A stretch of 64,000 nucleotides of DNA, taken from positions 298,712-362,711 of the forward strand of contig DJWB01000001.1 of NCBI GenBank assembly GCA_002441425.1, read 5' to 3'. Position numbers and translations under genes: made by a program. Of the stretch, positions 1 to 11,182 are shown one piece after another. Source of the stretch: Patescibacteria group bacterium UBA6241 (GTDB lineage: Bacteria; Patescibacteriota; Minisyncoccia; Phycocordibacterales; Phycocordibacteraceae). Below the pieces are notes generated by a model. It searched no databases. It was not told the origin of the DNA and was given only the letters and a program-made list of their open reading frames with translations. Every line of letters starts with the position of its first letter. Position 1 is the stretch's first letter.

Positions 1-459
1 CAGGTTCACCCAGATGAAAAGTTTGTGGTCGTTATCGATGAGCCAGAGAACCACCTTCATCCTGAGATGCAGAGAACTCTATTAAGAGATTTTATTAATG
101 CATTTCCTCATGTTCAGTTTATAGTCTCTACTCACAACCCATTCATAGTTACCTCTTTATCGAATTCGAATGTCTTTGCACTGAAATATAACGAGGAGAA
201 TAAAGTAGAAAGTGAGAGACTAGATTTATTTGAAAAAGCAGGCTCTTCCAACGAAATTCTACGAGATGTACTTGGTCTCGATACTGCTCTTCCTCTATGG
301 GTAGAGCAACAGCTCGAGGAGGTTATTTCAAGATACTCAGCAATGAAGTTTGAGGATGAGACCTTCGTGCAGCTCAGGAAGGAACTTAAGGAGTCGGGTC
401 TAGACAGAATGGTGCCAGAAACTATCGCGCGGATAGCTGAAAAGAATACCGATGATTAA
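1..459 (+). CDS. ptuA: Septu PtuA-like AAA ATPase, C-terminal part (5' truncated by window edge)
   Basis: Frame is open from nt 1 (QVHPDEKFVVVIDEPENHLHPEMQ...). The Walker-B/D-loop-like motif 'VVIDEPENHLHP' followed by 'VSTHNP' is typical of AAA_15/AAA_21 (OLD/ABC-like) abortive-infection ATPases. An HNH partner gene follows immediately with a 4-nt overlap. Confidence 0.6.
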   Translation, partial: QVHPDEKFVVVIDEPENHLHPEMQRTLLRDFINAFPHVQFIVSTHNPFIVTSLSNSNVFALKYNEENKVESERLDLFEKAGSSNEILRDVLGLDTALPLWVEQQLEEVISRYSAMKFEDETFVQLRKELKESGLDRMVPETIARIAEKNTDD

Positions 460-1096
460 ATTAAACAAAACCGGCGAGCCAGACGTTCTGTTACGCAATA
501 AGGCTTCTTGGACGGCTGAGTACCTGAGACAAGTCGCAGCGGGCCGAGGAGTCTCTCCAACAGTAGCTGGGCGGTATCGCCACGAAGATATCAAGTCGCA
601 GCTCGTTACAGAAACCTCAGGCAAGTGCGCATATTGCGAAAGTAAGATGCTGCACGTTGCATTTGGAGACATAGAGCATATCCGGCCAAAATCCGTGAAC
701 CCTGACCTAACGTTTGAATGGGAAAACCTGACGTTAGTATGTTCAGTCTGCAATAACAACAAGCGAGACTACGATTCTCCTACTGAGCCGCTAATAAATC
801 CTTACATTGATAACCCATCTGACCATTTACGTGCTTACGGGCCGATGGTTTGGCCTAAAACGGATAGCATCCGGGGCGATTTAACAGAAAAACTCTTAGG
901 TCTAAATCGAAAAGAACTTTTCGAACGAAGGAAGGAGCGCTTGGAAAGTCTGATGCATCTTATTGAGAACTGGACACGAGAAACGAATCAAACTCGGAAG
1001 GACATCCTACAAAGACAGATTCTTGAAGAATCTAAGGAGGATAAAGAGTTCAGTCTAGTGATTAAGACGTTTCTTGAAGACTCTAAAATCATTTAG
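452..1096 (+). CDS. ptuB: Septu PtuB-like HNH endonuclease
   Basis: HNH motif CAYCE...HVAFGDIEHIRPKS...NLTLVCSVCNNNK (Cys-pair, His, Asn, second Cys-pair). It is translationally coupled to the upstream ATPase. ATPase plus HNH is the Septu architecture. Confidence 0.65.
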   Translation: MIKLNKTGEPDVLLRNKASWTAEYLRQVAAGRGVSPTVAGRYRHEDIKSQLVTETSGKCAYCESKMLHVAFGDIEHIRPKSVNPDLTFEWENLTLVCSVCNNNKRDYDSPTEPLINPYIDNPSDHLRAYGPMVWPKTDSIRGDLTEKLLGLNRKELFERRKERLESLMHLIENWTRETNQTRKDILQRQILEESKEDKEFSLVIKTFLEDSKII

Positions 1097-1107
1097 CCTT
1101 CTTACGA

Positions 1108-2643
1108 ATGGACGAGAAGGAAAAGAAAGACGAGCTATATAGGGCTTACAAGCCTCTCCGCAACCATCTGAGGAAGCTCAGTGTACCCGAGTCACTCCTA
1201 GTTCTTTGGCATTACCTACGCCATCTCCATTCAGGAAATACGGAATTTCCTGACATAGACGTAAGCCAAGAGTTTTTGGAAGCCGACCATATACAGAAGC
1301 GACGTGGCATATCCGAATGGGATTTAGAAATACTAATCCGAGAAGTCATCATTCATGGCTGGTCTTGGGATGAGGACCAGAAAACGCTTCGCAAAGGCAA
1401 CTATCTGGCTGGAGCAGTCAATAAATTAAAGGACATTAATGGGAGCATCTCAAAGCTATATATCAATAAGGACAATGTGCTAAAGGAGATGGCACGTCTT
1501 TCGCACCAGCAGTTCATGTGGGTCATAAAGAAACCGACCATGAACTCTTTTACGAGGTATTACAAGATTTTTAGTGCACCTGGCCTAGATACATTACTTG
1601 AAAGCCATTTTGAACTGACCATACAGGAGATATTTATTTTTGCTTCTGCTGTATGGGGCTATTTCCAGAACAAGGCAGCACTCGACAATCCACCAAAGAT
1701 TCAAATTCTAAATCTTACGCCAGAAGATTTTGAGAAGTTCGTATCTAAGTTCACCAAAGATTGCGAATCTCTGCGTGAAGACATGCTCGCCTCGAGAAAA
1801 ATTGACGACCGTTTCTTTTACGACTTCAATCCTTTGCGCCGATACCCCCTGATAAGCATGAGGTACTTTGGAAAGGATAGTATCGTGTGTCCCGACCCAA
1901 CTATTTTATACTGGCGGCTTACCGACGGCATTTACTACGAATTGTTCGATAAACCCGGTTTCAGTGAACCTTTTGGAACTTCATTTGAGAATTATGTTGG
2001 TGAGGTCTTAGAGAAAACTTGTGGCGCCTTCAGTATTCTAAAAGAGGAAGAATATGGACCTAAACGAGACCGAAAGAAATCTATTGACTGGATAGTGGAT
2101 GCAGGTCGAGATGCACTTTTTATTGAGTGTAAGACCAAGCGAATGCGCCACAACGCAAAAGCGGAACTTCTTTCTAATGAAGTACAGGAAGCGGACTTGG
2201 AAAAGATGGCCGACTTTGTCGTACAAGCTTATAAAAGTATCCGAGACTACAAAGCCAGAAAGTATCCTCATTTGGCTTACAGATGGAGACGACGTGTGTA
2301 CCCGATGATAGTTACCTTGGAAGACTGGATGATATTCGGTGACTATCTTATGGGACAACTCGACAGCATGATAAGGACAAAGATGCAGACAGAAAATCTA
2401 CCGCTTTGGTATCTCGAGGCTATGCCCTATTCGATATGCCCCATTCAGACTTTTGAGAACCTAATTCAGGTAATAGCTGAGAAAGGTATCCATGATGTAG
2501 TTGCTGATAAGTGCAGAGATGACGACAAGAAGCTCTGGGATTATTCCGCCTATGCACCCGACAAGTATCCGGAAGAGTGGAAGAAGTGCTCTTTCCTCTT
2601 CGAAGAAGATTTTGAAAAGATACTACCTCCCGAGTTCTACTAA
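1108..2643 (+). CDS. Uncharacterised 511-aa protein with putative PD-(D/E)xK-like nuclease motif in C-terminal half
   Basis: Long clean ORF with no family I recognise. The segment '...ENYVGEVLEK...IDWIVDAGRDALFIECKTKR' fits an E...D...ExK restriction-endonuclease-fold pattern. It sits 12 nt after ptuB and ahead of the R-M module, inside the low-GC island. Confidence 0.55.
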   Translation: MDEKEKKDELYRAYKPLRNHLRKLSVPESLLVLWHYLRHLHSGNTEFPDIDVSQEFLEADHIQKRRGISEWDLEILIREVIIHGWSWDEDQKTLRKGNYLAGAVNKLKDINGSISKLYINKDNVLKEMARLSHQQFMWVIKKPTMNSFTRYYKIFSAPGLDTLLESHFELTIQEIFIFASAVWGYFQNKAALDNPPKIQILNLTPEDFEKFVSKFTKDCESLREDMLASRKIDDRFFYDFNPLRRYPLISMRYFGKDSIVCPDPTILYWRLTDGIYYELFDKPGFSEPFGTSFENYVGEVLEKTCGAFSILKEEEYGPKRDRKKSIDWIVDAGRDALFIECKTKRMRHNAKAELLSNEVQEADLEKMADFVVQAYKSIRDYKARKYPHLAYRWRRRVYPMIVTLEDWMIFGDYLMGQLDSMIRTKMQTENLPLWYLEAMPYSICPIQTFENLIQVIAEKGIHDVVADKCRDDDKKLWDYSAYAPDKYPEEWKKCSFLFEEDFEKILPPEFY

Positions 2644-2981
2644 TTACTTACCCTCAGATATTTGTAATGACCGTATAGAGCAGGTGTGTAGTAGTGGGCA
2701 AAGAAAAAGAATTGTCCTACAAATGCTCCACACTCCTTACAGACGTTTGCCAAGTAGGTCTCTTCTGAAGTCTTGCTAAATATAGTCTTAAGAAGGACAC
2801 CGTGCTCCTCTGCCAACGATACTTCTTCATTGGAAAAGCCTTCCGGTCCTCCATATAGATTTCCTGCGTTATCTCCAATCAGCGCAATAAGCATTGGTTT
2901 ATCGCACTGCCAACACTCGGCACTGATTATCATCATTTGTCCTTCTGGTTCGTCCATTCCGGCTATTATACAGAATTCCAA
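2640..2981 (-). CDS. Small hypothetical protein (113 aa), Cys-containing
   Basis: ORF convergent with the 511-aa gene. Contains CWQC...CKEC pairs that could bind zinc. No homology recognised. Confidence 0.3.
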   Translation of the reverse strand: MEFCIIAGMDEPEGQMMIISAECWQCDKPMLIALIGDNAGNLYGGPEGFSNEEVSLAEEHGVLLKTIFSKTSEETYLANVCKECGAFVGQFFFFAHYYTPALYGHYKYLRVSN

Positions 2982-3395
2982 TAAACCGATATCCCTTCAA
3001 AACCAAGGAAATTCTCCTCTAATATTGGGCATCCTCCCGCGCGTACAAATTGCTCCATTAAAACACCCACCACCTATTCGGACTTGTGTTCGGATTTGCG
3101 ATAAGTTAAGAACCTCGAAGCACGGCTTACCCACTCTTGAGGCTGCTCTTGTCTACTCTCTCCTAAGGCTCTCTGTAGCCAGCAGTCGGTCAACGGGTAG
3201 AGGAATACGAGAATACAGATAGAAAGCCTCGTATCTCGCGAAGTGACTCCGTAGGATATGGGAATACGTCTTCCCAAGGAATAGTTCGTAAGTTCTCCCT
3301 CCAAGCGAGCCAGACATAATAAGAAATAGAGGCTCGACAAGAATCTGAGAAGAACTCGCGAAGCGAAAAGTGTCTCAGGTGATGTTATTTTCACT

Positions 3396-3515
3396 ATGGA
3401 CTATAGTAGCCTTAGAAGTACCAACGATACAGAGAACCGAATAGCACCCCCTCTTGAGACAATTTCTAAACTTGCCAAGGTGCTCGATTTAAGTACCGCA
3501 GAACTGCTAAAATAG
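3396..3515 (+). pseudogene. Remnant of XRE-family HTH (controller-protein-like) gene, C-terminal fragment only
   Basis: 39-codon ORF MDYSSLRSTNDTENRIAPPLETISKLAKVLDLSTAELLK* matches the recognition-helix and C-terminal half of Cro/C1-type HTH domains (...RIENGKRNPSLETLIKIAKALDVSLDELL). All three upstream frames are closed by stops. It ends 5 nt before the methyltransferase ATG. Confidence 0.35.
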
Positions 3516-3519
3516 AGTT

Positions 3520-4476
3520 ATGACTACGCAACAAGCAATCATAAAACTCGCAAATGAGTTGAATATCAATAGTATCTACGCACGCCATGTTTTCCATACT
3601 GCAGATAAGACACGATTGTTTGAAGATGCAACACGAATTGTCAACGAGAAACCAAAGCCGTTCGTGAAATGGGTGGGCGGCAAAAGACAGTTACTCCGCC
3701 AATTTCGTGATATGGGATTATATCCGCCTGATGATTTTGATCCTGTCACAAATACTTACTTTGAGCCATTTGTCGGGGGTGGAGCCGTCTTTTTCGACCT
3801 ACTCCCAAAAAAGGCAGAACTTTCTGATTTAAATAATGAACTTGTAACAACATACAATGTCATCAAAAATGACGTTGATGAACTAATCAAATCACTCAAA
3901 AAGCATAAGTACGAAAAAGAATACTATCTTAAAGTACGCGCAAAAAATCCAAAAAGTTTGTCAGATCTTAATGTTGCATCTCGGTTCATCTACCTAAATC
4001 GTACTTGTTTCAATGGTATGTACCGGGTGAACAGCAAAGGTGGTTTCAATGTGCCCTTTGGCAAATATACAAATCCTATAATTTGCGACGAAGAAAACTT
4101 AATCAAAGCGTCAAAAGCACTACAAAAAGTAACTATCAAAAATCAGGATTATAAAAAAGTCCTTGAAAAGGCAGGGAAAGGTGACTTTGTGTATTTTGAT
4201 CCACCTTATTATCCAGTAAGCAAAACTGCCTCGTTCACTTCGTACACAGCAGACACATTCTTGGAAAAAGAGCAGTTGGAATTACGAGATGTATTTATAG
4301 AATTACACAAGCGTGACTGTTTTGTCATGCTTTCAAATTCCGATACTCCTTTAATCAATGAACTTTACTCAAATATCAAAGGAGTGAAAGTATCAAAAGT
4401 AGCCGCTGGGCGTGCGATAAACTCAAACGCAGCAAAGCGTGGAAAAATTAGCGAGGTATTAGTAACTAACTACTGA
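3520..4476 (+). CDS. Dam-family N6-adenine DNA methyltransferase (M.MboIA/DpnM-like, GATC-type)
   Basis: Motifs 'KWVGGKRQLL' and 'FEPFVGGGAVFFD' (AdoMet binding) plus 'DPPY' catalytic motif. This is the D12-class Dam signature. Confidence 0.85.
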   Translation: MTTQQAIIKLANELNINSIYARHVFHTADKTRLFEDATRIVNEKPKPFVKWVGGKRQLLRQFRDMGLYPPDDFDPVTNTYFEPFVGGGAVFFDLLPKKAELSDLNNELVTTYNVIKNDVDELIKSLKKHKYEKEYYLKVRAKNPKSLSDLNVASRFIYLNRTCFNGMYRVNSKGGFNVPFGKYTNPIICDEENLIKASKALQKVTIKNQDYKKVLEKAGKGDFVYFDPPYYPVSKTASFTSYTADTFLEKEQLELRDVFIELHKRDCFVMLSNSDTPLINELYSNIKGVKVSKVAAGRAINSNAAKRGKISEVLVTNY

Positions 4477-4481
4477 ACGAC

Positions 4482-5342
4482 ATGAATAAAACATTTACAG
4501 AACTGATAGATGGTTTCAAAAGCTCCATAAAAACGTGGGATTATTTTGTAAATTGGGACAAAGTGCAAGCAAACTCTGCCGATCTTGAAATTTCGCTCAA
4601 TAAACTGAATTACTTACTTGGTAAAGAGAATCTCAAAGATGAATTTGCTAAACTTTACGAATCAAATCCCGATATTGTAAAAGCATTACCTGTTTTGCTT
4701 GCGGTACGAGAGAACAAGTTAGAAATTTTTGATAAAACTACAAAGGAATCAGAGTTTTTTGATTTTTCCATAGGCAAAGATGACGCAGAAAAGTATTCTG
4801 AGTTTATTGAAAAGTCTGGACTAGCTCGTTTGTTTCAAAAGGACGGGATCAAAAATCTTGTTGATTATGTTATTGGGGTTGAAGTTGGTTTAGATAGCAA
4901 TGGACGTAAAAACCGTGGCGGTACGCTTATGGAGAAAATTGTTGGAACGTATATCAAAGATTTTGCCGAAGAACACGGTTTTGAATATCTTGCACAAGCA
5001 CGCGCTACAGAGATAAAGACAAGGTGGGGTTATGATGTTGAGGTTGATAAATCAGAACGAAGTTTTGATTTTGCCGTATACAATCCGCAAGCAAAGAAGC
5101 TTAAACTGTTTGAGGTAAACTTCTATAACGGAGGTGGCTCAAAACTAAAAGCAGTCTGCGGTGAATTCCGTAGTTTGTATAGCGAACTAACGAAACAAGG
5201 AATTGATTTTGTTTGGGTTACTGACGGTCTTGGTTGGAAAACAGCAAAACGACCGTTAGAAGAAACCTTTAATCACAACAACGGAGAAATCTTTAATCTT
5301 AATATGCTTGAAGATAGGGTCTTGGAGGAGCTAACTTGGTAA
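4482..5342 (+). CDS. Type II restriction endonuclease, DpnII/MboI family (inferred from position and size)
   Basis: 286 aa (DpnII is ~288 aa). It is sandwiched between two methyltransferases with 5-nt and 4-nt spacers. This matches the mboIAM-mboIR-mboICM gene order. Confidence 0.55.
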   Translation: MNKTFTELIDGFKSSIKTWDYFVNWDKVQANSADLEISLNKLNYLLGKENLKDEFAKLYESNPDIVKALPVLLAVRENKLEIFDKTTKESEFFDFSIGKDDAEKYSEFIEKSGLARLFQKDGIKNLVDYVIGVEVGLDSNGRKNRGGTLMEKIVGTYIKDFAEEHGFEYLAQARATEIKTRWGYDVEVDKSERSFDFAVYNPQAKKLKLFEVNFYNGGGSKLKAVCGEFRSLYSELTKQGIDFVWVTDGLGWKTAKRPLEETFNHNNGEIFNLNMLEDRVLEELTW

Positions 5343-5346
5343 ACAA

Positions 5347-6093
5347 ATGGCAAGGGAAATAAAACTACACCCCGAAGAATTCGATCTTGAATGCACAACG
5401 GTGTGGGCTTTTCCAAGGCGTGGAAATTGGGCAACTCACAAATCTGATTGGCGCGGAAATTGGTCGCCAGAAGTTGCACGTAATCTTATTCTCCGATATT
5501 CCAACGAGGGCGATATTTTACTCGATCCGATGATTGGTGGTGGGACAACAGCGATTGAAGCAAAGATACTCAATCGCAATATTATCTGTTCTGATGTGAA
5601 TGATATTGCGCTAGAACGAACGAAAGAAAGTTTGAGATTTGAGGTTGAAAACAAAGCGTGGCAAAAGATTGTCAAGCGCGATGCTCGCAACCTTAACAAA
5701 GCTGAAAATGAAAGTATTGATTTTATTCTCACACACCCACCCTATGCCGACATTATCAAATACAGTGAAGGAGAAATTGACGAGGACCTTTCAAATATAC
5801 ATGAAATAGAGGAGTTTGCTGACGAAATGGAGAAAGTCGCAAATGAATTGTATCGAGTTCTTAAGCCTGGTAAATTTTGTGCAATTTTAATTGGCGATAC
5901 ACGCCGACAAAAGATGTATCAGCCACTTGCATATCGGGTTATGGACCGATTCCTAAATGCAGGATTTAACCTCAAGGAGGACATAATAAAGCGCCAATTT
6001 AACTGCAAAGCAACTGGCTTTTGGGTCGAGAAATCTAAACAAGGCAATTTTTTGTTAATAATGCATGAGCATCTGTTTGTGTTTCAAAAATAA
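5347..6093 (+). CDS. Second DNA methyltransferase (N4/N6 MTase family, DpnA/M.MboIC-like)
   Basis: Motif I 'DPMIGGGTT' and motif IV 'THPPY'. Small (248 aa) ParB-type N6/N4 methylase, as in the DpnII/MboI cassettes. Confidence 0.75.
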   Translation: MAREIKLHPEEFDLECTTVWAFPRRGNWATHKSDWRGNWSPEVARNLILRYSNEGDILLDPMIGGGTTAIEAKILNRNIICSDVNDIALERTKESLRFEVENKAWQKIVKRDARNLNKAENESIDFILTHPPYADIIKYSEGEIDEDLSNIHEIEEFADEMEKVANELYRVLKPGKFCAILIGDTRRQKMYQPLAYRVMDRFLNAGFNLKEDIIKRQFNCKATGFWVEKSKQGNFLLIMHEHLFVFQK

Positions 6094-6210
6094 TTATTTT
6101 GCAGAAAGAATTCACCAAACAATAATTTTGAATAGAATTAATGCGAAGTCTGTTGCGAAACTCCAAGAAGTTCGGATTTCATCAATACAGATAGAGCCCA
6201 AAAGTCTGGT

Positions 6211-7509
6211 CTACAACAATACCAGCGAAGCAAGTCCAAGAAACGCAAAGAATCCAAGCACGTCAGTTGCTGTAGTAATGAAAATTGTTGCTGACGTGGC
6301 CGGGTCTTTCCCCATTGCTTTCATAACGAGCGGGATAAGTGCCCCAAAGAATCCAGCAACAACTAGGTTAAAGACCATAGCAAACGCAAGTACGAGACCG
6401 AGCATCGGGTCTCCATTCCAGAAAGTAGCGACAACGGCAACGAGTACTCCGGTTATAACTCCATTAATAAACCCTGCACCAACTTCTCTGGAAATAGCAG
6501 GTAGTCCATTCTTGAGATTGATCTCTCCAATGGTGATACCCCGCACAATAACAGCGAGTGTTTGTGTCGCTGCATTTCCTCCCATACCCGCAACAATAGG
6601 CATGTACATAGCAAGCACTACAAGCTGACTAAGTGTGTCTTCAAATAAACCAACAACTGCAGCAGCAAGGAAGGCTGTTGCAAGGTTAATGATGAGCCAC
6701 TTATATCTGCTCTTTACCTTGCTCCCCACAGTGTCAAAAGATCGCTCAGCATCTGCCACACCCGCAAAGTTATAGAGCGCAGCAGCGGGCTCTCTACTAA
6801 AGAGTGCGAGCGCATCGTCTGAATACACAATGCCAATAACGCTGCCGTCTCTATCAAGCACTGCTATCTTGCTATGCTTCGTAGCACCAAATGAACTCAC
6901 AACTTCATGAATGTCAGCTTCATATGTTACTGACCGCACAGGAACTACGAAATGCTTCAGTGTCTTATGGTTGCTTTCTCGCACCAATACAGAAAGCGGA
7001 GCCTCTCCAATAAGCTCCCCGTTTTCATGCACAAGTATCTCAGGAAGTTTGCCGAGTTCCCGGTAATGCTCATCAATAGCGTCTGCAGTATCTCCAATAG
7101 TTGAATCGCTAGATACAAGAAGATAATTAAAATTAAGAAGCGAAAGAGCAGCCTTTGGATGGAAACGTAAGAAATAGCTCGCCTTATCTTTAAGCTCACT
7201 TTTTACTCTCGCGATGATTCTCTCACGTCGCTTTTGATTCTTAACAAGCGCGAGTGCATTCTCTGCATGCTGCATATCCATCTGATCAAGAAGATTGACC
7301 ATCTCTTCGTCCTTCAAACTATCAAGGATGCTTTTCCTGACGTGAGGAGAAAGATTGTCAAACAGTGCTGCCTGTTCAGAGACTGAAAGATCTCGGAACA
7401 ACTCCATCCTTTTCTTTGGGTGGTATGTAAGATCGTGCGCCAAAATACTTGGAGTCCTAATGGAGGATGTGTTCGGGTGTACAGCTGAATGGTCTATACC
7501 TTTAGACAT
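6211..7509 (-). CDS. mgtE: Magnesium transporter MgtE
   Basis: N-terminal MgtE_N domain, tandem CBS region, and a C-terminal 5-TM domain ending ...GNAATQTLAVIVRG...TDVLGFFAFLG. Confidence 0.85.
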   Translation of the reverse strand: MSKGIDHSAVHPNTSSIRTPSILAHDLTYHPKKRMELFRDLSVSEQAALFDNLSPHVRKSILDSLKDEEMVNLLDQMDMQHAENALALVKNQKRRERIIARVKSELKDKASYFLRFHPKAALSLLNFNYLLVSSDSTIGDTADAIDEHYRELGKLPEILVHENGELIGEAPLSVLVRESNHKTLKHFVVPVRSVTYEADIHEVVSSFGATKHSKIAVLDRDGSVIGIVYSDDALALFSREPAAALYNFAGVADAERSFDTVGSKVKSRYKWLIINLATAFLAAAVVGLFEDTLSQLVVLAMYMPIVAGMGGNAATQTLAVIVRGITIGEINLKNGLPAISREVGAGFINGVITGVLVAVVATFWNGDPMLGLVLAFAMVFNLVVAGFFGALIPLVMKAMGKDPATSATIFITTATDVLGFFAFLGLASLVLL

Positions 7510-7690
7510 ACGGATTTAACTTAGTATAGCCTCAGTACGAGCATACACATAGACAGAGCGCTCGCAGCAGGATTCACTGCCCACCTCACAAAGCCTGTTG
7601 GAGTTGAGGAGTTAAAGAGTGCTCTTGAGGCACATCTCTAAACCCGAGCATTTTATTCAAATGCGTAGTATCGTATAGGCATCATTATTA
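7510..7690 (-). promoter_or_regulatory. mgtE 5' leader; possible divergent M-box (Mg2+) riboswitch
   Basis: The leader RNA (minus strand) contains ...CUUUGUGAGGUGGGCAGUGAAUCCUGCUGCGAGCGCUC.... GUGAGGU and CUGCUGC occur at about the spacing of the M-box core GGUGAGGC...CGCUGCUGCCC. This is a partial match only. Confidence 0.2.
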
Positions 7691-7885
7691 GTACGTACCA
7701 CTTATGGCAGCAAACAGTCACGGCGTGAGTCCGAAGAAACCTCGGAAGCACCCACAAAAGACGGCAAAACGTCTTGCAATCAAGAAAGCGAGAAAAGAGG
7801 CCGGAAAATAAGAAGCCATTGGCACCACACAGTCTTTGTGTGGTGTTCTTGCAATATGGTCTAATTTATTGTACTATAGCGTGTA

Positions 7886-8128
7886 ATGAGATCTCCTGAT
7901 GTTGATCGTATTCGCTGTGAAAAACAGCTCAATCTTCCTGCCTTTGTGAAGGCATATAACGAGGATCTGCCTGAGCAGTTTCCCCAGGCAACACTTGAGC
8001 TTCTGCAAGAATTTAAGAAGCAGAATAGTTCCCTCTTCAAGCAATCTCGTACGTGGTCTTTAGACCAGCACCGCAAGAAAGTTATGGACTGGCTTCCTGC
8101 ACACACTCGCGCGCTAGAGAGTAACTGA
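7886..8128 (+). CDS. Hypothetical protein (80 aa)
   Basis: Plausible composition. The overlapping minus-strand ORF is Cys/Ser-rich and looks spurious. Confidence 0.35.
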   Translation: MRSPDVDRIRCEKQLNLPAFVKAYNEDLPEQFPQATLELLQEFKKQNSSLFKQSRTWSLDQHRKKVMDWLPAHTRALESN

Positions 8129-8335
8129 AAGTAGTTTAGAGGGGCTGTGATGCCCATTCACAATACGCACTTGAGCTACAGACACCTGTAGCTCTTTTGC
8201 AATAATTTCACAGACTCGTGTATTGGCTTGATTCCGCTCTGCCTTTTCGCGAACGGCTATTACAAAGTGATCTGCAGACTTTTGTTTGCAGTCTTCCTTC
8301 TTAGCGCCCGCAGTAACGCGAACGTGAATATACAC
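8114..8335 (-). CDS. yggU: DUF167/YggU family protein
   Basis: 'IHVRVTAGAKKED...HFVIAV...' matches the UPF0235 (YggU) pattern hvrVxPgAkk. YggT is nearby. Confidence 0.6.
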   Translation of the reverse strand: MYIHVRVTAGAKKEDCKQKSADHFVIAVREKAERNQANTRVCEIIAKELQVSVAQVRIVNGHHSPSKLLSVTL

Positions 8336-8844
8336 TATGGAGTTTTCTGCACAACACGCACTATCTCCCCACTTTGAAGCGTAACAATAAAGACCGGGTC
8401 AGTATCTTCAAGAAGCTCTTTCAAGACTTCAATGGAATTCCCAGATTCTTCTAGGAATGAGAATGTTACTTCTTTAATAAGAGCTACATCAAACCCTGGT
8501 GCTCCACTTGGGCGCACATAGTAGCCGTCTTCAAGCGTAGGTACGCATGTTTCAATCTCAGCACCACAGACAACTTCAGCTTCTGCAGATGTGCGTGCTG
8601 CTTCTCCTTCAAAGTACGTAACGTGTTCCATTGCCAGATTTGTTTCCTCTGGAGACTCTGTAACTGATGAAATCGTTACATAGTATTCTCCATCAACAAC
8701 ACCAACGGGTGCAGCGGGAACTTCCTCAGTGAGAACAACTTCCTTCTCAGGCGCCAGCACAACAAGGAAATAATAGAGACCTGCGGCAAGGAGCACGAAG
8801 AACAACGCTACGAGAATCAGGAAGTGGCTTGAGCGGATTAACAT
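8335..8844 (-). CDS. Membrane-anchored hypothetical protein
   Basis: N-terminal TM helix, then an acidic Glu/Val-rich extracytoplasmic domain. Start and stop are coupled with the flanking yggT/yggU genes. Confidence 0.5.
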   Translation of the reverse strand: MLIRSSHFLILVALFFVLLAAGLYYFLVVLAPEKEVVLTEEVPAAPVGVVDGEYYVTISSVTESPEETNLAMEHVTYFEGEAARTSAEAEVVCGAEIETCVPTLEDGYYVRPSGAPGFDVALIKEVTFSFLEESGNSIEVLKELLEDTDPVFIVTLQSGEIVRVVQKTP

Positions 8845-8887
8845 ACCCTCAGTATACCTAAGTTCCCTGATGCGTGCCTATTCCGGC

Positions 8888-9241
8888 TTATTCGGATGCT
8901 TCTAGCTTTGCTGCGGCCTCAGGAGTTGAAACTGCCTTGCCCATAAGCAAGAGTTTAAGCAGCCCGATCGCCACCAACCAGTACACAACCATAGCAAGGA
9001 GCGTGGTCCACTCAAACACGCTCCCTGCAACCTGAGATGTGCCAAAGACCGTTGAGAATGGCAGAGTGAACGGGTACGTAACAGAGTAAATAAAGTTAGT
9101 GAATCCCGCTCCTGGGTTCGCTCCAAGGAGTTTAAGTACAAACCGAAACGCAAGGAGTGCTTCCAATAGTCCGAGAAGATACCACACTACTTGAGTCCCT
9201 CTATACAAAGGTTTGGTGCTAGGTGCAACGTATGAATCCAT
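8888..9241 (-). CDS. yggT: YggT family membrane protein
   Basis: ~115 aa with two TM helices. 'FRFVLKLLGANP...F' is YggT/Ycf19-like. It is co-located with yggU. Confidence 0.6.
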   Translation of the reverse strand: MDSYVAPSTKPLYRGTQVVWYLLGLLEALLAFRFVLKLLGANPGAGFTNFIYSVTYPFTLPFSTVFGTSQVAGSVFEWTTLLAMVVYWLVAIGLLKLLLMGKAVSTPEAAAKLEASE

Positions 9242-9318
9242 AAAATTGAGTTAGTGAATATACACTCATACTCGCAGAAAGGGTGTGAAGACCTCATGAA
9301 TGGCTGTATGCTTCATGT

Positions 9319-9819
9319 ATGAATACGCTCTCACTCTTCTATCCAGTTGCCCCGCATGTGGTAACCCGCCCATGGGGTGTTGCGGATGAATTGTATAAAG
9401 AGTTCGGCTTTAAGAAGCACAACGGAGTGGACCTCGCACTTGGCGAAGGACAAGAAATAAGAGCTCCGTTTGATTGCACTGTTACCTTAGTTGGAAACCA
9501 GCCAAAGGGATCTGGTCTATTTGTCTGTCTTCTTTCAACAGCTACGTATGACTTCCCAGACGGGGTACGTGCCCGCGTTGAGCTTTCTTGCATGCACCTT
9601 TCCCGCGTATCTGTTACACCTGGCACCAGACTTGGAGTTGGTATGGTGTTTGCATACGGAGGACACACCGGAAGAGCCACTGGCCCTCACGTACATATTG
9701 CACCTAAACGAGTGCGTCGCGGACTTATTGGATATCGTGATATAGATCGCAACGATGCGAACAACACGTTTGATCCTGAGCCGTATTGGAACCAGGAGTA
9801 TGCGAGAACCGCTTCTTAA
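9319..9819 (+). CDS. M23 family metallopeptidase (LytM domain)
   Basis: HxxxD...HxH pattern: 'HNGVDLA' and 'GPHVHI'. Confidence 0.75.
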   Translation: MNTLSLFYPVAPHVVTRPWGVADELYKEFGFKKHNGVDLALGEGQEIRAPFDCTVTLVGNQPKGSGLFVCLLSTATYDFPDGVRARVELSCMHLSRVSVTPGTRLGVGMVFAYGGHTGRATGPHVHIAPKRVRRGLIGYRDIDRNDANNTFDPEPYWNQEYARTAS

Positions 9820-10229
9820 CGCTTCTTTTTAAGACACGAATCACACTTGCAACCAAGCGGCTTAATGAACTCATCTACGTATTCCTTTCCGTAGTCGTAG
9901 GTTAGCTGCTCTCCAGCCTTAATGGTGCGCAAAGTGAGTACAAATACCCTTCCCTTGTGTATCTCTGTCTCGCAGTTTGGTTTGCAGGCGTGGTTAATGT
10001 ATCCCGCCTTATTGTCTTTCGGCTTTCCGTCTATGGTCTTGTTCTTACTTATCTCAAACAAGTACCTACTCTTGCTCGTGAGTGTCTCCTCTTTGGAGAC
10101 AACTCTTCCCACATACTCAATAACACACGCTCCCTTAGGAATAGACTCGCCGGCAAAAAGCCCTAGACCGGTGCTAGAGCGTTTAACGAGGAGCTTCCAG
10201 TTTCCTGGAACAAACTTCTTATAAGCCAT
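9816..10229 (-). CDS. SET domain protein (putative protein-lysine methyltransferase)
   Basis: 'GYINHACKPNCE' (the NHSCxPNC SET motif), 'YDYG', and a post-SET Cys cluster 'GCKCDSC'. Confidence 0.7.
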   Translation of the reverse strand: MAYKKFVPGNWKLLVKRSSTGLGLFAGESIPKGACVIEYVGRVVSKEETLTSKSRYLFEISKNKTIDGKPKDNKAGYINHACKPNCETEIHKGRVFVLTLRTIKAGEQLTYDYGKEYVDEFIKPLGCKCDSCLKKKR

Positions 10230-10306
10230 ACGTCTCCGTATCGTACTGCATTCCTAACTTCCATCAAGTCGCCTCATTCTGCGGGATATGCAACAATGAG
10301 ATATAT

Positions 10307-11182
10307 ATGGGACGTACGGGCATACTTGTAAGCGCACTTCTGGGCATTCTCGTTCTCGCAGGCGCTATAGGCGGAGCGTATCTATACTCCAGACTCTCTG
10401 CTTCGCTCGCGGACACAGAGACCTCTCTACAGGCCTCTGAGGAGCAGTCTGCGCGCCTTTCAGGAGAGCTCAAAGAAGCTAAAGACTACATTGCACGTCT
10501 TGAGACGGCGCTTTCAAGCGAGCGAAACAAAAACAGTGTGTTTGAGAACCAGATATCTAAAATATCAGGAACTGTTGGAGTTCTAGAGAAGCTCGCAAAG
10601 ACTGATCCTGAACTGCTCGCAAAGTATTCAAAGGTATTCTTCCTGAACGAAAATTACTCTCCTCCTGCCCTCTCTCCAATTCCTGACGAATATCTCTACC
10701 AAAAGGATCGCATTCTAACGCTGCATAAAAGCGTTGAGCCACATCTTGAAGATATGTTGAGTGCGGCAAAGGAAGACGGTATTACTCTACAAATTATTTC
10801 AGCGTACAGATCTTTTGATACACAGGAGGCACTAAAAAATAACTATCGTGTTACGTATGGCTCTGGAGCAAATGCTTTCTCTGCAGACCAAGGGTACTCA
10901 GAGCACCAACTTGGAACTACCGTTGATATAACAACTCCAGAAGTTGGTGCAACATTTTCTGGCTTTGATACTACAGATGCGTACAAGTGGCTTACCGAAA
11001 ACGCCTGGAGATACGGCTTCGTGCTCTCCTATCCTAAGAACAATGCGTACTATCAGTATGAGCCGTGGCACTGGCGCTTTGTTGGAGAGGAACTTGCCCG
11101 CGATCTTCATAGAGAAGAAAAGTACTTCTATGACCTAGACCAGCGAGAGATTGATGAGTATTTGGCTGATATTTTTGATTAA
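10307..11182 (+). CDS. D-alanyl-D-alanine carboxypeptidase, VanY/peptidase M15B family
   Basis: N-terminal TM plus coiled coil. 'SEHQLGTTVDI' and 'EPWHWRF' are zinc-ligand motifs of VanY/M15. Confidence 0.8.
   Translation: MGRTGILVSALLGILVLAGAIGGAYLYSRLSASLADTETSLQASEEQSARLSGELKEAKDYIARLETALSSERNKNSVFENQISKISGTVGVLEKLAKTDPELLAKYSKVFFLNENYSPPALSPIPDEYLYQKDRILTLHKSVEPHLEDMLSAAKEDGITLQIISAYRSFDTQEALKNNYRVTYGSGANAFSADQGYSEHQLGTTVDITTPEVGATFSGFDTTDAYKWLTENAWRYGFVLSYPKNNAYYQYEPWHWRFVGEELARDLHREEKYFYDLDQREIDEYLADIFD

What the first reader, a model, noticed from the sequence alone, without database searches (positions are those of the whole stretch)
1..1096. Septu (PtuA/PtuB) system cut by the window edge; possible retron association upstream
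The PtuA-type ATPase C-terminus (VVIDEPENHLHP...STHNP) overlaps an HNH nuclease (CAYCE...H...N...CSVCN) by 4 nt, which is the Septu operon arrangement. PtuAB pairs also occur as effectors of type I-A retrons. The upstream, unseen sequence may therefore hold an RT and msr/msd.
Basis: partly seen in the sequence, partly recalled or inferred. Interest (0 to 1): 0.5.

Follow-up and report, generated by a model that had tools for sequence, protein, structure and literature searches.

The report
Stand-alone Septu defence pair, no retron
The window opens inside an ordinary two-gene Septu anti-phage system (PtuA ATPase plus PtuB HNH nuclease) on a small mobile defence island of a Paceibacterota (CPR) bacterium, and the unseen upstream DNA, recovered from identical public contigs, holds no reverse transcriptase or retron RNA.

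Summary
Window 1-459 encodes the last 152 residues of a 415-aa PtuA ABC-type ATPase. Window 452-1096 encodes a complete 214-aa PtuB HNH nuclease. The two genes overlap by 8 nt (ATGATTAA), not 4. Both proteins match Septu type I profiles end to end (PtuA 2.6e-158, PtuB 4.5e-81) and match retron I-A profiles far more weakly.

Two public contigs identical to the window supply 9.5 kb of upstream sequence. PtuA has an intact Walker A motif and starts 789 nt before the window. Upstream of it lie a 703-nt non-coding gap, two small genes, a large serine recombinase and tRNA-Asn. There is no RT, no room for one, and no retron RNA. PtuA also lacks the N-terminal extension that retron-type PtuA uses to bind the RT.

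About 83 relatives across many phyla show the same PtuA-PtuB pair, and no RT was found beside it.

The next gene (1108-2643) is an independent GAPS1-like PD-(D/E)xK nuclease. A DpnII-type restriction-modification system follows. All three sit on a ~10-kb low-GC island at tRNA-Asn in a Candidatus Paceibacterota genome.

Verdict: an ordinary stand-alone Septu, a new member of a known kind. The retron idea is refuted. Interest is low.

The parts
1..459 (+). ptuA, 3' part only: residues 264-415 of a 415-aa ABC-type ATPase. It includes Walker B D276/E277 (nt 37-42), H-loop H308 (nt 133-135) and the C-terminal helical extension that binds PtuB in solved complexes. The gene starts 789 nt upstream of the window (L001 8761).
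   Evidence: Full-length protein from the identical contig L001 8761-10008. PADLOC PtuA1 PDLC00290 2.6e-158, 1-413 against 2-413 of 414. AlphaFold model pLDDT 83; the 50 best PDB fold matches listed are all PtuA chains.
452..1096 (+). ptuB, complete: a 214-aa HNH (ββα-Me) nuclease with C59xxC62, H76, N92, C97xxC100 and a helical C-terminal domain.
   Evidence: PADLOC PtuB1 PDLC00337 4.5e-81 full length; Pfam HNH 2e-08. A homologue lies directly downstream of PtuA in 83 of 84 related loci.
452..459 (+). 8-nt ptuA stop / ptuB start overlap (ATGATTAA), implying translational coupling.
   Evidence: Sequence. A start/stop overlap is seen in 63 of 76 scorable relatives.
1108..2643 (+). Neighbouring, separate defence gene: a 511-aa GAPS1-like single-protein PD-(D/E)xK nuclease with invariant D327, E340, K342. 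It lies 11 nt after ptuB and is not part of Septu.
   Evidence: NCBIfam GapS1 3.6e-26, below the curated cut-off. Family alignment. Model pLDDT 91.7 with PD-(D/E)xK fold matches. Homologues at 75, 58 and 46% identity are not next to PtuAB. 0 of 84 PtuA relatives have it.
2640..2981 (-). 113-aa ORF with CxxC...CxxC, convergent with the GAPS1-like gene. No family match; function unknown.
3520..4476 (+). Dam-like (D12 class) N6-adenine DNA methyltransferase, the first gene of a DpnII-type type II R-M system.
   Evidence: Pfam MethyltransfD12 6.1e-63; PADLOC MTase_II 1.4e-98.
4482..5342 (+). DpnII-family restriction endonuclease.
   Evidence: Pfam DpnII 3.1e-93; PADLOC REase_II 1.6e-96.
5347..6093 (+). 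Second methyltransferase (N6_N4_Mtase) of the DpnII-type system. It is the last gene before the core gene mgtE (6211-7509, -), so the inferred right end of the island lies between 6094 and 6210.
   Evidence: Pfam N6_N4_Mtase 6.6e-26; PADLOC MTase_II 2.3e-91; synteny and GC.

Best explanation
This is a stand-alone (type I) Septu anti-phage system. It is a two-gene, translationally coupled operon encoding PtuA, an ABC-type ATPase of 415 aa, and PtuB, an HNH nuclease of 214 aa.

The mechanism below is inferred by homology from characterised E. coli Septu systems; none of it was shown here. PtuA oligomerises and holds PtuB through its C-terminal helical extension. Cellular ATP keeps the nuclease quiet. 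Phage infection releases the nuclease activity. PtuB then nicks DNA and/or cleaves a host tRNA, which stops phage replication at some cost to the cell.

The pair is cargo on a ~10-kb low-GC island next to tRNA-Asn in a Candidatus Paceibacterota (CPR) genome. A large serine recombinase lies at the island's tRNA end. The island also carries two independent defence modules: a GAPS1-like PD-(D/E)xK nuclease and a DpnII-type restriction-modification system. No retron is involved.
For: Identity of the pair: full-length PtuA matches the PADLOC Septu PtuA1 model end to end (2.6e-158, 526 bits), against 119 bits and only partial coverage for the retron I-A ATPase model. PtuB scores 4.5e-81 against PtuB1 and 1.4e-23 against HNH_I-A. 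The NCBIfam retron-Ec78 PtuA and PtuB equivalog models score 113 bits (cut-off 500) and 57 bits (cut-off 150).

Catalytic motifs: Walker A K35, signature S246-G247-G248, Walker B D276/E277 and H308 are present and invariant across 35 homologues. PtuB H76 and N92 correspond to H75 and N91, which are essential in Septu EcB88 (PMC13096335).

Fold: the 50 best PDB matches listed for the PtuA model are all PtuA chains, including E. coli Septu 8eea, 8ee4 and 8sux.

Upstream sequence from 100%-identical contigs: the order is tRNA-Asn, serine recombinase, DUF805 protein, 84-aa ORF, then a 703-nt gap. There is no ORF able to encode a 300-aa RT. There is no retron or msr match in Rfam. The only notable structure is one 19-bp hairpin.

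PtuA residue 3 aligns with residue 67 of Ec78 PtuA. The N-terminal extension that binds the RT and ncRNA is therefore absent (PMC12819146).

Relatives: 83 of 84 related loci have PtuB directly downstream of PtuA. No RT recurs among 104 neighbouring ORFs. None of 10 of the 13 retron-sized (230-650 aa) [YF]xDD-containing neighbour ORFs is an RT; the other 3 were left out as short or overlapped ORFs.

Island: GC is 0.36-0.43 against 0.45-0.53 in the flanks. In related Paceibacterota contigs the left-flank genes lie about 1.1 kb from mgtE, whereas here about 10 kb intervenes.

Host: RpoB is 92% identical to Candidatus Paceibacterota MAGs.
Against: There is no functional evidence. Anti-phage activity, oligomeric state, ATP control and substrate are all inferred.

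This PtuA is only about 14-20% identical to every solved PtuA. The fold search does not separate stand-alone from retron PtuA, since both score about 1e-16. Subtype assignment therefore rests on profiles, protein length and gene context.

The trigger and substrate differ among characterised PtuAB systems: plasmid nicking, ssDNA cleavage or tRNA-Tyr cleavage (PMC12640716). They cannot be predicted here.

The upstream sequence comes from other assemblies of what is evidently the same strain, not from the window's own record.

The right boundary of the island is inferred. No att repeat was found.
Confidence: 0.88

Rival explanations
1. Type I-A retron (also called 'Septu type II'). An RT and an msr/msd ncRNA upstream of the window would sequester PtuAB until a phage nuclease degrades the msDNA.
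For: PtuAB pairs do serve as retron Ec78/Eco7 and Ec83/Eco4 effectors, and about 7.6% of Septu systems are retron-linked (PMC12640716). The retron I-A profiles give significant but weaker hits. A 19-bp hairpin lies 368 nt upstream of ptuA.
Against: The identical upstream sequence has no RT ORF and only a 703-nt gap. Rfam finds no retron RNA. Structure in the gap is confined to one hairpin, with no flanking a1/a2-type repeats of note. PtuA lacks the N-terminal extension and is 135 aa shorter than Ec78 PtuA. No RT was found next to about 83 relatives.
Confidence: 0.01
2. A three-gene system. PtuA, PtuB and the 511-aa PD-(D/E)xK protein, which starts 11 nt downstream on the same strand, would act together as a new Septu variant with a second nuclease.
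For: The three genes are tightly packed and co-directional, and no terminator was predicted between ptuB and the 511-aa gene.
Against: Homologues of the 511-aa protein at 75, 58 and 46% identity sit alone in unrelated contexts. None of 84 PtuA-related loci encodes such a protein. The protein belongs to the GAPS1 family, which works as a single protein (bioRxiv 10.1101/2023.03.28.534373).
Confidence: 0.04
3. A different AAA_15/AAA_21 ATPase system (Gabija GajA, PARIS AriA, OLD, MADS MAD3 or AbiEii-like) mislabelled as Septu.
For: The ATPase shares Pfam AAA_15/AAA_21 with those families and gives weak hits to AriA, GajA, MAD3 and OLD.
Against: The Septu PtuA1 model scores 526 bits end to end, against 85 bits or less for AriA and mad3. 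There is no TOPRIM domain. The partner is an HNH protein that matches PtuB end to end, not GajB, AriB or a MADS component. All 50 listed fold matches are PtuA chains.
Confidence: 0.01
4. PtuAB acts mainly as an addiction or stabilisation module for the serine-recombinase island, or as a DNA-repair ATPase-nuclease, rather than as phage defence.
For: PtuAB is toxic when released (PMC12640716). The pair sits on a mobile island here and in the 72%-identical relative L008.
Against: It is co-located with two other defence modules, the GAPS1-like gene and a DpnII-type R-M system. Every characterised family member is an anti-phage system. No antitoxin-like partner is present.
Confidence: 0.06

Closest known systems
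Stand-alone Septu (type I) PtuA/PtuB, e.g. E. coli Septu (PDB 8EE4/8EEA/8SUX) and Septu EcB88
   Same: Both are a two-gene operon of an ABC-type ATPase and an HNH nuclease with no RT. The Walker A/B motifs and the H...N catalytic residues match (H76/N92 here, H75/N91 in EcB88). The PtuA C-terminal helical extension and the PtuB C-terminal helical domain are present. The end-to-end PADLOC PtuA1 and PtuB1 matches and the fold match agree.
   Different: PtuA is about 15-18% identical to the solved E. coli PtuA and shorter (415 against 465 aa). The host is a CPR bacterium. The gene overlap is 8 nt. The substrate, trigger and 6:2 stoichiometry are untested.
Retron type I-A (Retron-Eco7/Ec78, Retron-Eco4/Ec83), also called 'Septu type II'
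   Same: PtuA and PtuB are homologous, with an equally good fold match.
   Different: There is no RT and no msr/msd. PtuA has no N-terminal extension and is about 135 aa shorter. The retron-specific profiles score far below their cut-offs.
GAPS1 (GMT-island anti-phage system 1, Vibrio parahaemolyticus) - for the neighbouring gene 1108-2643
   Same: Both are a single protein of about 450-510 aa with a C-terminal PD-(D/E)xK site, and the D-to-K spacing of 15 residues is the same (D327...K342 here, D313...K328 in GAPS1). The NCBIfam GapS1 model is covered at positions 66-443 of 455.
   Different: The score is only 92 bits against a cut-off of 320, so this is a distant branch found mostly in Patescibacteria metagenomes. 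The best structural match is the dual-nuclease defence protein Upx (9wuf, 8e-06).
DpnII-type type II restriction-modification system - for genes 3520-6093
   Same: It has a Dam-like methyltransferase, a DpnII-family endonuclease and a second N6_N4 methyltransferase.
   Different: The gene order is M1-R-M2. The specificity was not tested.

Membership tests
Septu (type I, stand-alone PtuAB) | PtuA is an ABC/AAA_15-AAA_21 ATPase with Walker A, signature motif, Walker B and H-loop. | tested here: met
   GANGSGK35T, S246-G247-G248, D276-E277 and H308 are all invariant in 35 homologues. Pfam AAA_21 and AAA_15.
Septu (type I, stand-alone PtuAB) | Full-length match to a curated Septu PtuA profile. | tested here: met
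   PADLOC PDLC00290 PtuA1: 2.6e-158, residues 1-413 against model 2-413 of 414.
Septu (type I, stand-alone PtuAB) | PtuB is an HNH (ββα-Me) nuclease with a helical C-terminal domain. | tested here: met
   PADLOC PDLC00337 PtuB1 4.5e-81, 1-212 of 216; Pfam HNH 2e-08; C59xxC62, H76, N92, C97xxC100.
Septu (type I, stand-alone PtuAB) | ptuA and ptuB are adjacent and co-directional, in the order A then B. | tested here: met
   8-nt overlap at 452-459. The same order is seen in 83 of 84 relatives, mostly with a start/stop overlap.
Septu (type I, stand-alone PtuAB) | PtuA fold matches solved PtuA structures. | tested here: met
   Model pLDDT 83.4. The 50 best Foldseek PDB hits listed are all PtuA chains, E about 1e-16.
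Septu (type I, stand-alone PtuAB) | Protects against phage; PtuA6:PtuB2 assembly; ATP-inhibited nuclease. | not testable with these tools
   This needs expression, plaque assays and biochemistry or cryo-EM.
Retron type I-A (Septu type II) | A retron reverse transcriptase gene lies next to ptuA. | tested here: not met
   9.5 kb of identical upstream sequence has no RT. The largest unassigned gap is 703 nt. No RVT family appears in the precomputed Pfam tables.
Retron type I-A (Septu type II) | An msr/msd ncRNA lies upstream. | tested here: not met
   No retron match in Rfam at E<=1. Excess structure in the gap is confined to one 19-bp hairpin. Rfam does not cover all retron RNAs, but the question is moot without an RT.
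Retron type I-A (Septu type II) | PtuA carries the N-terminal extension and helical flap that bind the RT, ncRNA and msDNA. | tested here: not met
   PtuA residue 3 aligns with Ec78 PtuA residue 67. The protein is 415 aa against 550 aa. The features are defined in PMC12819146.
Retron type I-A (Septu type II) | Reaches the curated NCBIfam equivalog cut-offs for Ec78 PtuA and PtuB. | tested here: not met
   113 bits against 500, and 56.6 bits against 150.
GAPS1 (neighbouring gene 1108-2643) | A single protein with a conserved C-terminal PD-(D/E)xK active site. | tested here: met
   D327, E340 and K342 are invariant in 26 homologues. PD-(D/E)xK nucleases dominate the fold matches. Homologues occur alone.
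GAPS1 (neighbouring gene 1108-2643) | Reaches the NCBIfam GapS1 curated cut-off. | tested here: not met
   92.1 bits against a cut-off of 320, although E=3.6e-26 over model positions 66-443 of 455. It is therefore 'GAPS1-like', a distant branch.

The most novel reading that the evidence does not exclude
The evidence does not strictly exclude that, in this reduced CPR genome, ptuA-ptuB and the GAPS1-like nuclease gene, packed 11 nt apart in one transcription unit, have become functionally coupled into a dual-nuclease Septu variant. It also does not exclude that the island represents an undescribed class of Paceibacterota defence islands. In that reading the large-serine-recombinase gene is completed by antisense tRNA sequence at the integration site, as seen independently in L001 and L008.
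Probability: 0.06. Interest if true: 0.4.

Novelty: new member of a known kind. Interest (0 to 1): 0.13.

Why it matters
It matters little for mechanism, because this is a textbook Septu pair.

It has modest value as a documented case of stacked defences in an ultra-small Paceibacterota (CPR) genome. Septu, a GAPS1-like nuclease and a DpnII-type R-M system together occupy about 7 kb of a ~10-kb tRNA-linked serine-recombinase island.

It is also a worked example showing that a PtuAB pair cut by a window edge should not be presumed retron-linked. Only about 7.6% of Septu systems are (PMC12640716). PtuA length and N-terminus, plus profile scores, already discriminate the two cases.

Tried and rejected
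(1) Retron upstream. I recovered the upstream DNA through exact-protein look-ups and verified 100% identity to the window. No RT was present, and Rfam found no retron RNA. Rejected.

(2) A structured ncRNA in the 703-nt gap. The whole-region z-score of -6.8 is due solely to one 19-bp hairpin at L001 8348-8393. The region has no similarity to any related locus. It is left as a probable terminator or insulator and is not a retron RNA.

(3) The 511-aa gene as a third Septu component. Rejected from the contexts of its homologues and of PtuA relatives.

(4) A fold search to separate stand-alone from retron PtuA. Inconclusive, because both subtypes match equally.

(5) A single-protein scan of genome contigs with PtuA found nothing. 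The alignment-based scan worked.

(6) An att direct repeat derived from tRNA-Asn at the right end of the island. None was found. This is expected for a serine recombinase, so the right boundary rests on synteny and GC only.

(7) Family searches for the small ORFs (113 aa, 84 aa, 62 aa). No hits in Pfam, NCBIfam, PADLOC or PHROGs.

(8) The Li et al. 2024 Septu structure paper could not be read. Its conclusions are cited second-hand from PMC12819146 and PMC12640716.

Full report
**Observation.** Frame 1 of window 1-459 is open from the first base. It reads QVHPDEKFVVVIDEPENHLHPEMQRTLL...VQFIVSTHNPFIV...EKNTDD*. Window 452-1096 is a complete 214-aa ORF containing CAYCE...DIEH...N...CSVCNNNK.

The 152-aa fragment matches PADLOC's Septu PtuA1 model PDLC00290 at 1.3e-65 over model positions 267-413 of 414. 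It also hits Pfam AAA_21 and AAA_15. The 214-aa protein matches PtuB1 model PDLC00337 at 4.5e-81 over 1-212 of 216, and Pfam HNH at 2e-08.

The one error is the overlap, which is 8 nt (ATGATTAA, 452-459), not 4.

**Recovering the unseen upstream sequence.** Exact-sequence look-ups of PtuB and of the next protein returned contigs from an ENA assembly (608 kb) and from two JGI metagenomes. BLAST shows window 1-11096 is 100% identical to L001/L002 from position 9550. L001 and L002 are identical to each other over 20.6 kb. This gives 9,549 nt upstream of the window.

PtuA is a 415-aa ORF at L001 8761-10008, so 263 codons lie outside the window. It begins MFKTLTIKNWRQYENIDIEFHPQLTVITGANGSGKTT, which is a canonical Walker A. 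The full-length protein matches PDLC00290 end to end (2.6e-158, 526 bits).

In an alignment of 35 homologues the following are invariant: Walker A (G29, N31, G32, G34, K35), the ABC signature S246-G247-G248, Walker B D276-E277 and the H-loop H308. PtuB H76 and N92 correspond to H75 and N91, which with PtuA Walker A/B are essential in E. coli Septu EcB88 (PMC13096335).

An AlphaFold model of PtuA (pLDDT 83.4) finds only PtuA chains among its 50 listed PDB matches.

**Is there a retron?** No. Upstream of ptuA lie, in order:
- a 703-nt gap (L001 8058-8760);
- an 84-aa ORF, a DUF805 membrane protein and a 527-aa large serine recombinase, all on the opposite strand;
- tRNA-Asn (L001 5602-5674);
- then housekeeping genes: glutaredoxin, a ribosome hibernation factor, fmt, def and aroA.

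Nothing there can encode a 300-aa RT. Rfam at E<=1 finds only the tRNA and noise. The gap folds unusually well as a whole (z = -6.8). A sliding-window analysis shows this is due entirely to one perfect 19-bp hairpin at L001 8348-8393. It is not an msr/msd-like architecture.

PtuA residue 3 aligns with residue 67 of Ec78 PtuA, and the protein is 135 aa shorter. [quoted passage not shown] It probably also lacks the helical flap (PMC12819146).

Retron-specific profiles score far lower. ATPase_I-A gives 119 bits against 526. HNH_I-A gives 1.4e-23 against 4.5e-81. The NCBIfam Ec78 PtuA and PtuB models give 113 of 500 bits and 57 of 150 bits. The fold search could not separate the subtypes.

**Relatives.** PtuA has more than 1,700 homologues of about 410-420 aa. 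Three looked up individually (72, 50 and 48% identity) are PtuA-PtuB pairs without an RT.

An alignment-seeded scan of species-representative genomes returned 80 loci from many bacterial phyla and one archaeon. Across 84 related loci PtuB lies directly downstream of PtuA in 83. The start/stop overlap is 4 nt in 40, 8 nt in 14 and 14 or 17 nt in 8 of 76 scorable cases.

A Pfam scan of 104 neighbouring ORFs found no recurrent family beyond phage integrase, in 4 members. Only the top 25 of 144 families were listed, so I also scanned 10 of the 13 retron-sized (230-650 aa) neighbour ORFs with a [YF]xDD motif individually, leaving out 3 that were short or overlapped by longer ORFs. None of the 10 is an RT. 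This clade is therefore stand-alone Septu.

**Surroundings.** Eleven nucleotides after ptuB begins a 511-aa gene (1108-2643) with no Pfam match. It does hit NCBIfam GapS1 (3.6e-26 over model positions 66-443 of 455, but 92 bits against a cut-off of 320).

GAPS1 is a single-protein defence with a C-terminal PD-(D/E)xK site (D313 and K328 are essential). It is triggered by the T7 capsid protein and causes dormancy (bioRxiv 10.1101/2023.03.28.534373). In 26 homologues of the window protein D327, E340 and K342 are invariant, and the D-to-K spacing is the same as in GAPS1.

The model is confident (pLDDT 91.7). It matches the dual-nuclease defence protein Upx and then PD-(D/E)xK nucleases such as the R.BspD6I small subunit, Card1, Can2 and BstEII.

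Its homologues at 75, 58 and 46% identity stand alone in unrelated contexts. None of 84 PtuA-related loci has one. It is therefore an independent module, not a third Septu gene.

After a convergent 113-aa CxxC ORF comes a DpnII-type R-M system: a Dam-like MTase, a DpnII endonuclease and an N6_N4 MTase (3520-6093).

**Island and host.** GC drops to 0.36-0.43 between L001 8700 and 15900, against 0.45-0.53 outside. In related Paceibacterota contigs (L099, L102, L103) the aroA...glutaredoxin block lies about 1.1 kb from mgtE. Here about 10 kb, from tRNA-Asn to the second methyltransferase, separates them.

The recombinase matches phage and SCC-type large serine integrases. No tRNA-derived repeat marks the right end.

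RpoB is 92% identical to Candidatus Paceibacterota MAGs. The rest of the window is housekeeping and has no tRNA or Rfam family.

**Mechanism.** This part is inferred. By homology, PtuA oligomers hold PtuB through the PtuA C-terminal extension and the PtuB C-terminal domain. ATP restrains the nuclease, and infection activates it. The output is DNA nicking and/or tRNA-Tyr cleavage, as reported for E. coli Septu systems. Which substrate and trigger apply here cannot be told from sequence.

**Verdict.** This is an ordinary stand-alone Septu system and a new member of a known kind. The retron suggestion is refuted. Interest is low.

Noticed in passing
L001 5602-7218 (upstream of the window); also L008 9745-11475: The large serine recombinase ORF (L001 5635-7218, -) ends inside tRNA-Asn (5602-5674, +). 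Its last ~28 codons are antisense to the tRNA 3' half and its terminator (...LLRGQDSNLRPID). In L008, the locus of the 72%-identical PtuA relative, a different serine recombinase (24% identical) likewise runs into tRNA-Ser. The recombinase reading frame may be completed across the attachment site in these Paceibacterota islands.
   Followed up: partly
L001 8348-8393 (1.2 kb upstream of window position 1): A perfect 19-bp hairpin with an 8-nt loop sits in the 703-nt gap between the divergent recombinase-side genes and ptuA. It accounts for all the excess folding energy of the region. No homologue was found in any fetched locus. It may be a terminator, an insulator or a recombination site.
   Followed up: partly
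window 1108-2643: A 511-aa GAPS1-like PD-(D/E)xK protein belongs to a branch populated mostly by Patescibacteria and metagenome sequences (334 hits). It scores well below the NCBIfam GapS1 cut-off. The model is high-confidence and its best PDB match is the dual-nuclease defence protein Upx (9wuf).
   Followed up: yes
window 2640-2981 (-): A 113-aa ORF with two CxxC pairs (a putative zinc ribbon) is convergent with the GAPS1-like gene and overlaps its stop codon by 4 nt. It has no match in Pfam, NCBIfam, PADLOC or PHROGs.
   Followed up: partly
window 3396-3515: A 39-aa ORF ending ...ISKLAKVLDLSTAELLK lies directly upstream of the Dam-like methyltransferase. It looks like a truncated HTH, possibly a remnant of an R-M controller (C) protein.
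   Followed up: no
window 3520-6093: A complete DpnII-type type II R-M system with two methyltransferases (D12-class Dam-like and N6_N4) flanks the endonuclease. This is the lowest-GC part of the island (0.35-0.40).
   Followed up: partly
L004 (JGI 3300001592), equivalent to window ~852-873 and ~4137-4161: A sibling assembly carries single-A insertions and N's that split ptuB (133-aa call) and the Dam-like methyltransferase (211 + 95 aa). These are most likely assembly or sequencing errors rather than real pseudogenes.
   Followed up: partly
window 6211-8000 versus L099/L102/L103: Relative to related Paceibacterota contigs, mgtE is inverted and the PF1765-like gene lies on the other side of it. 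A local rearrangement therefore accompanies the island insertion.
   Followed up: no
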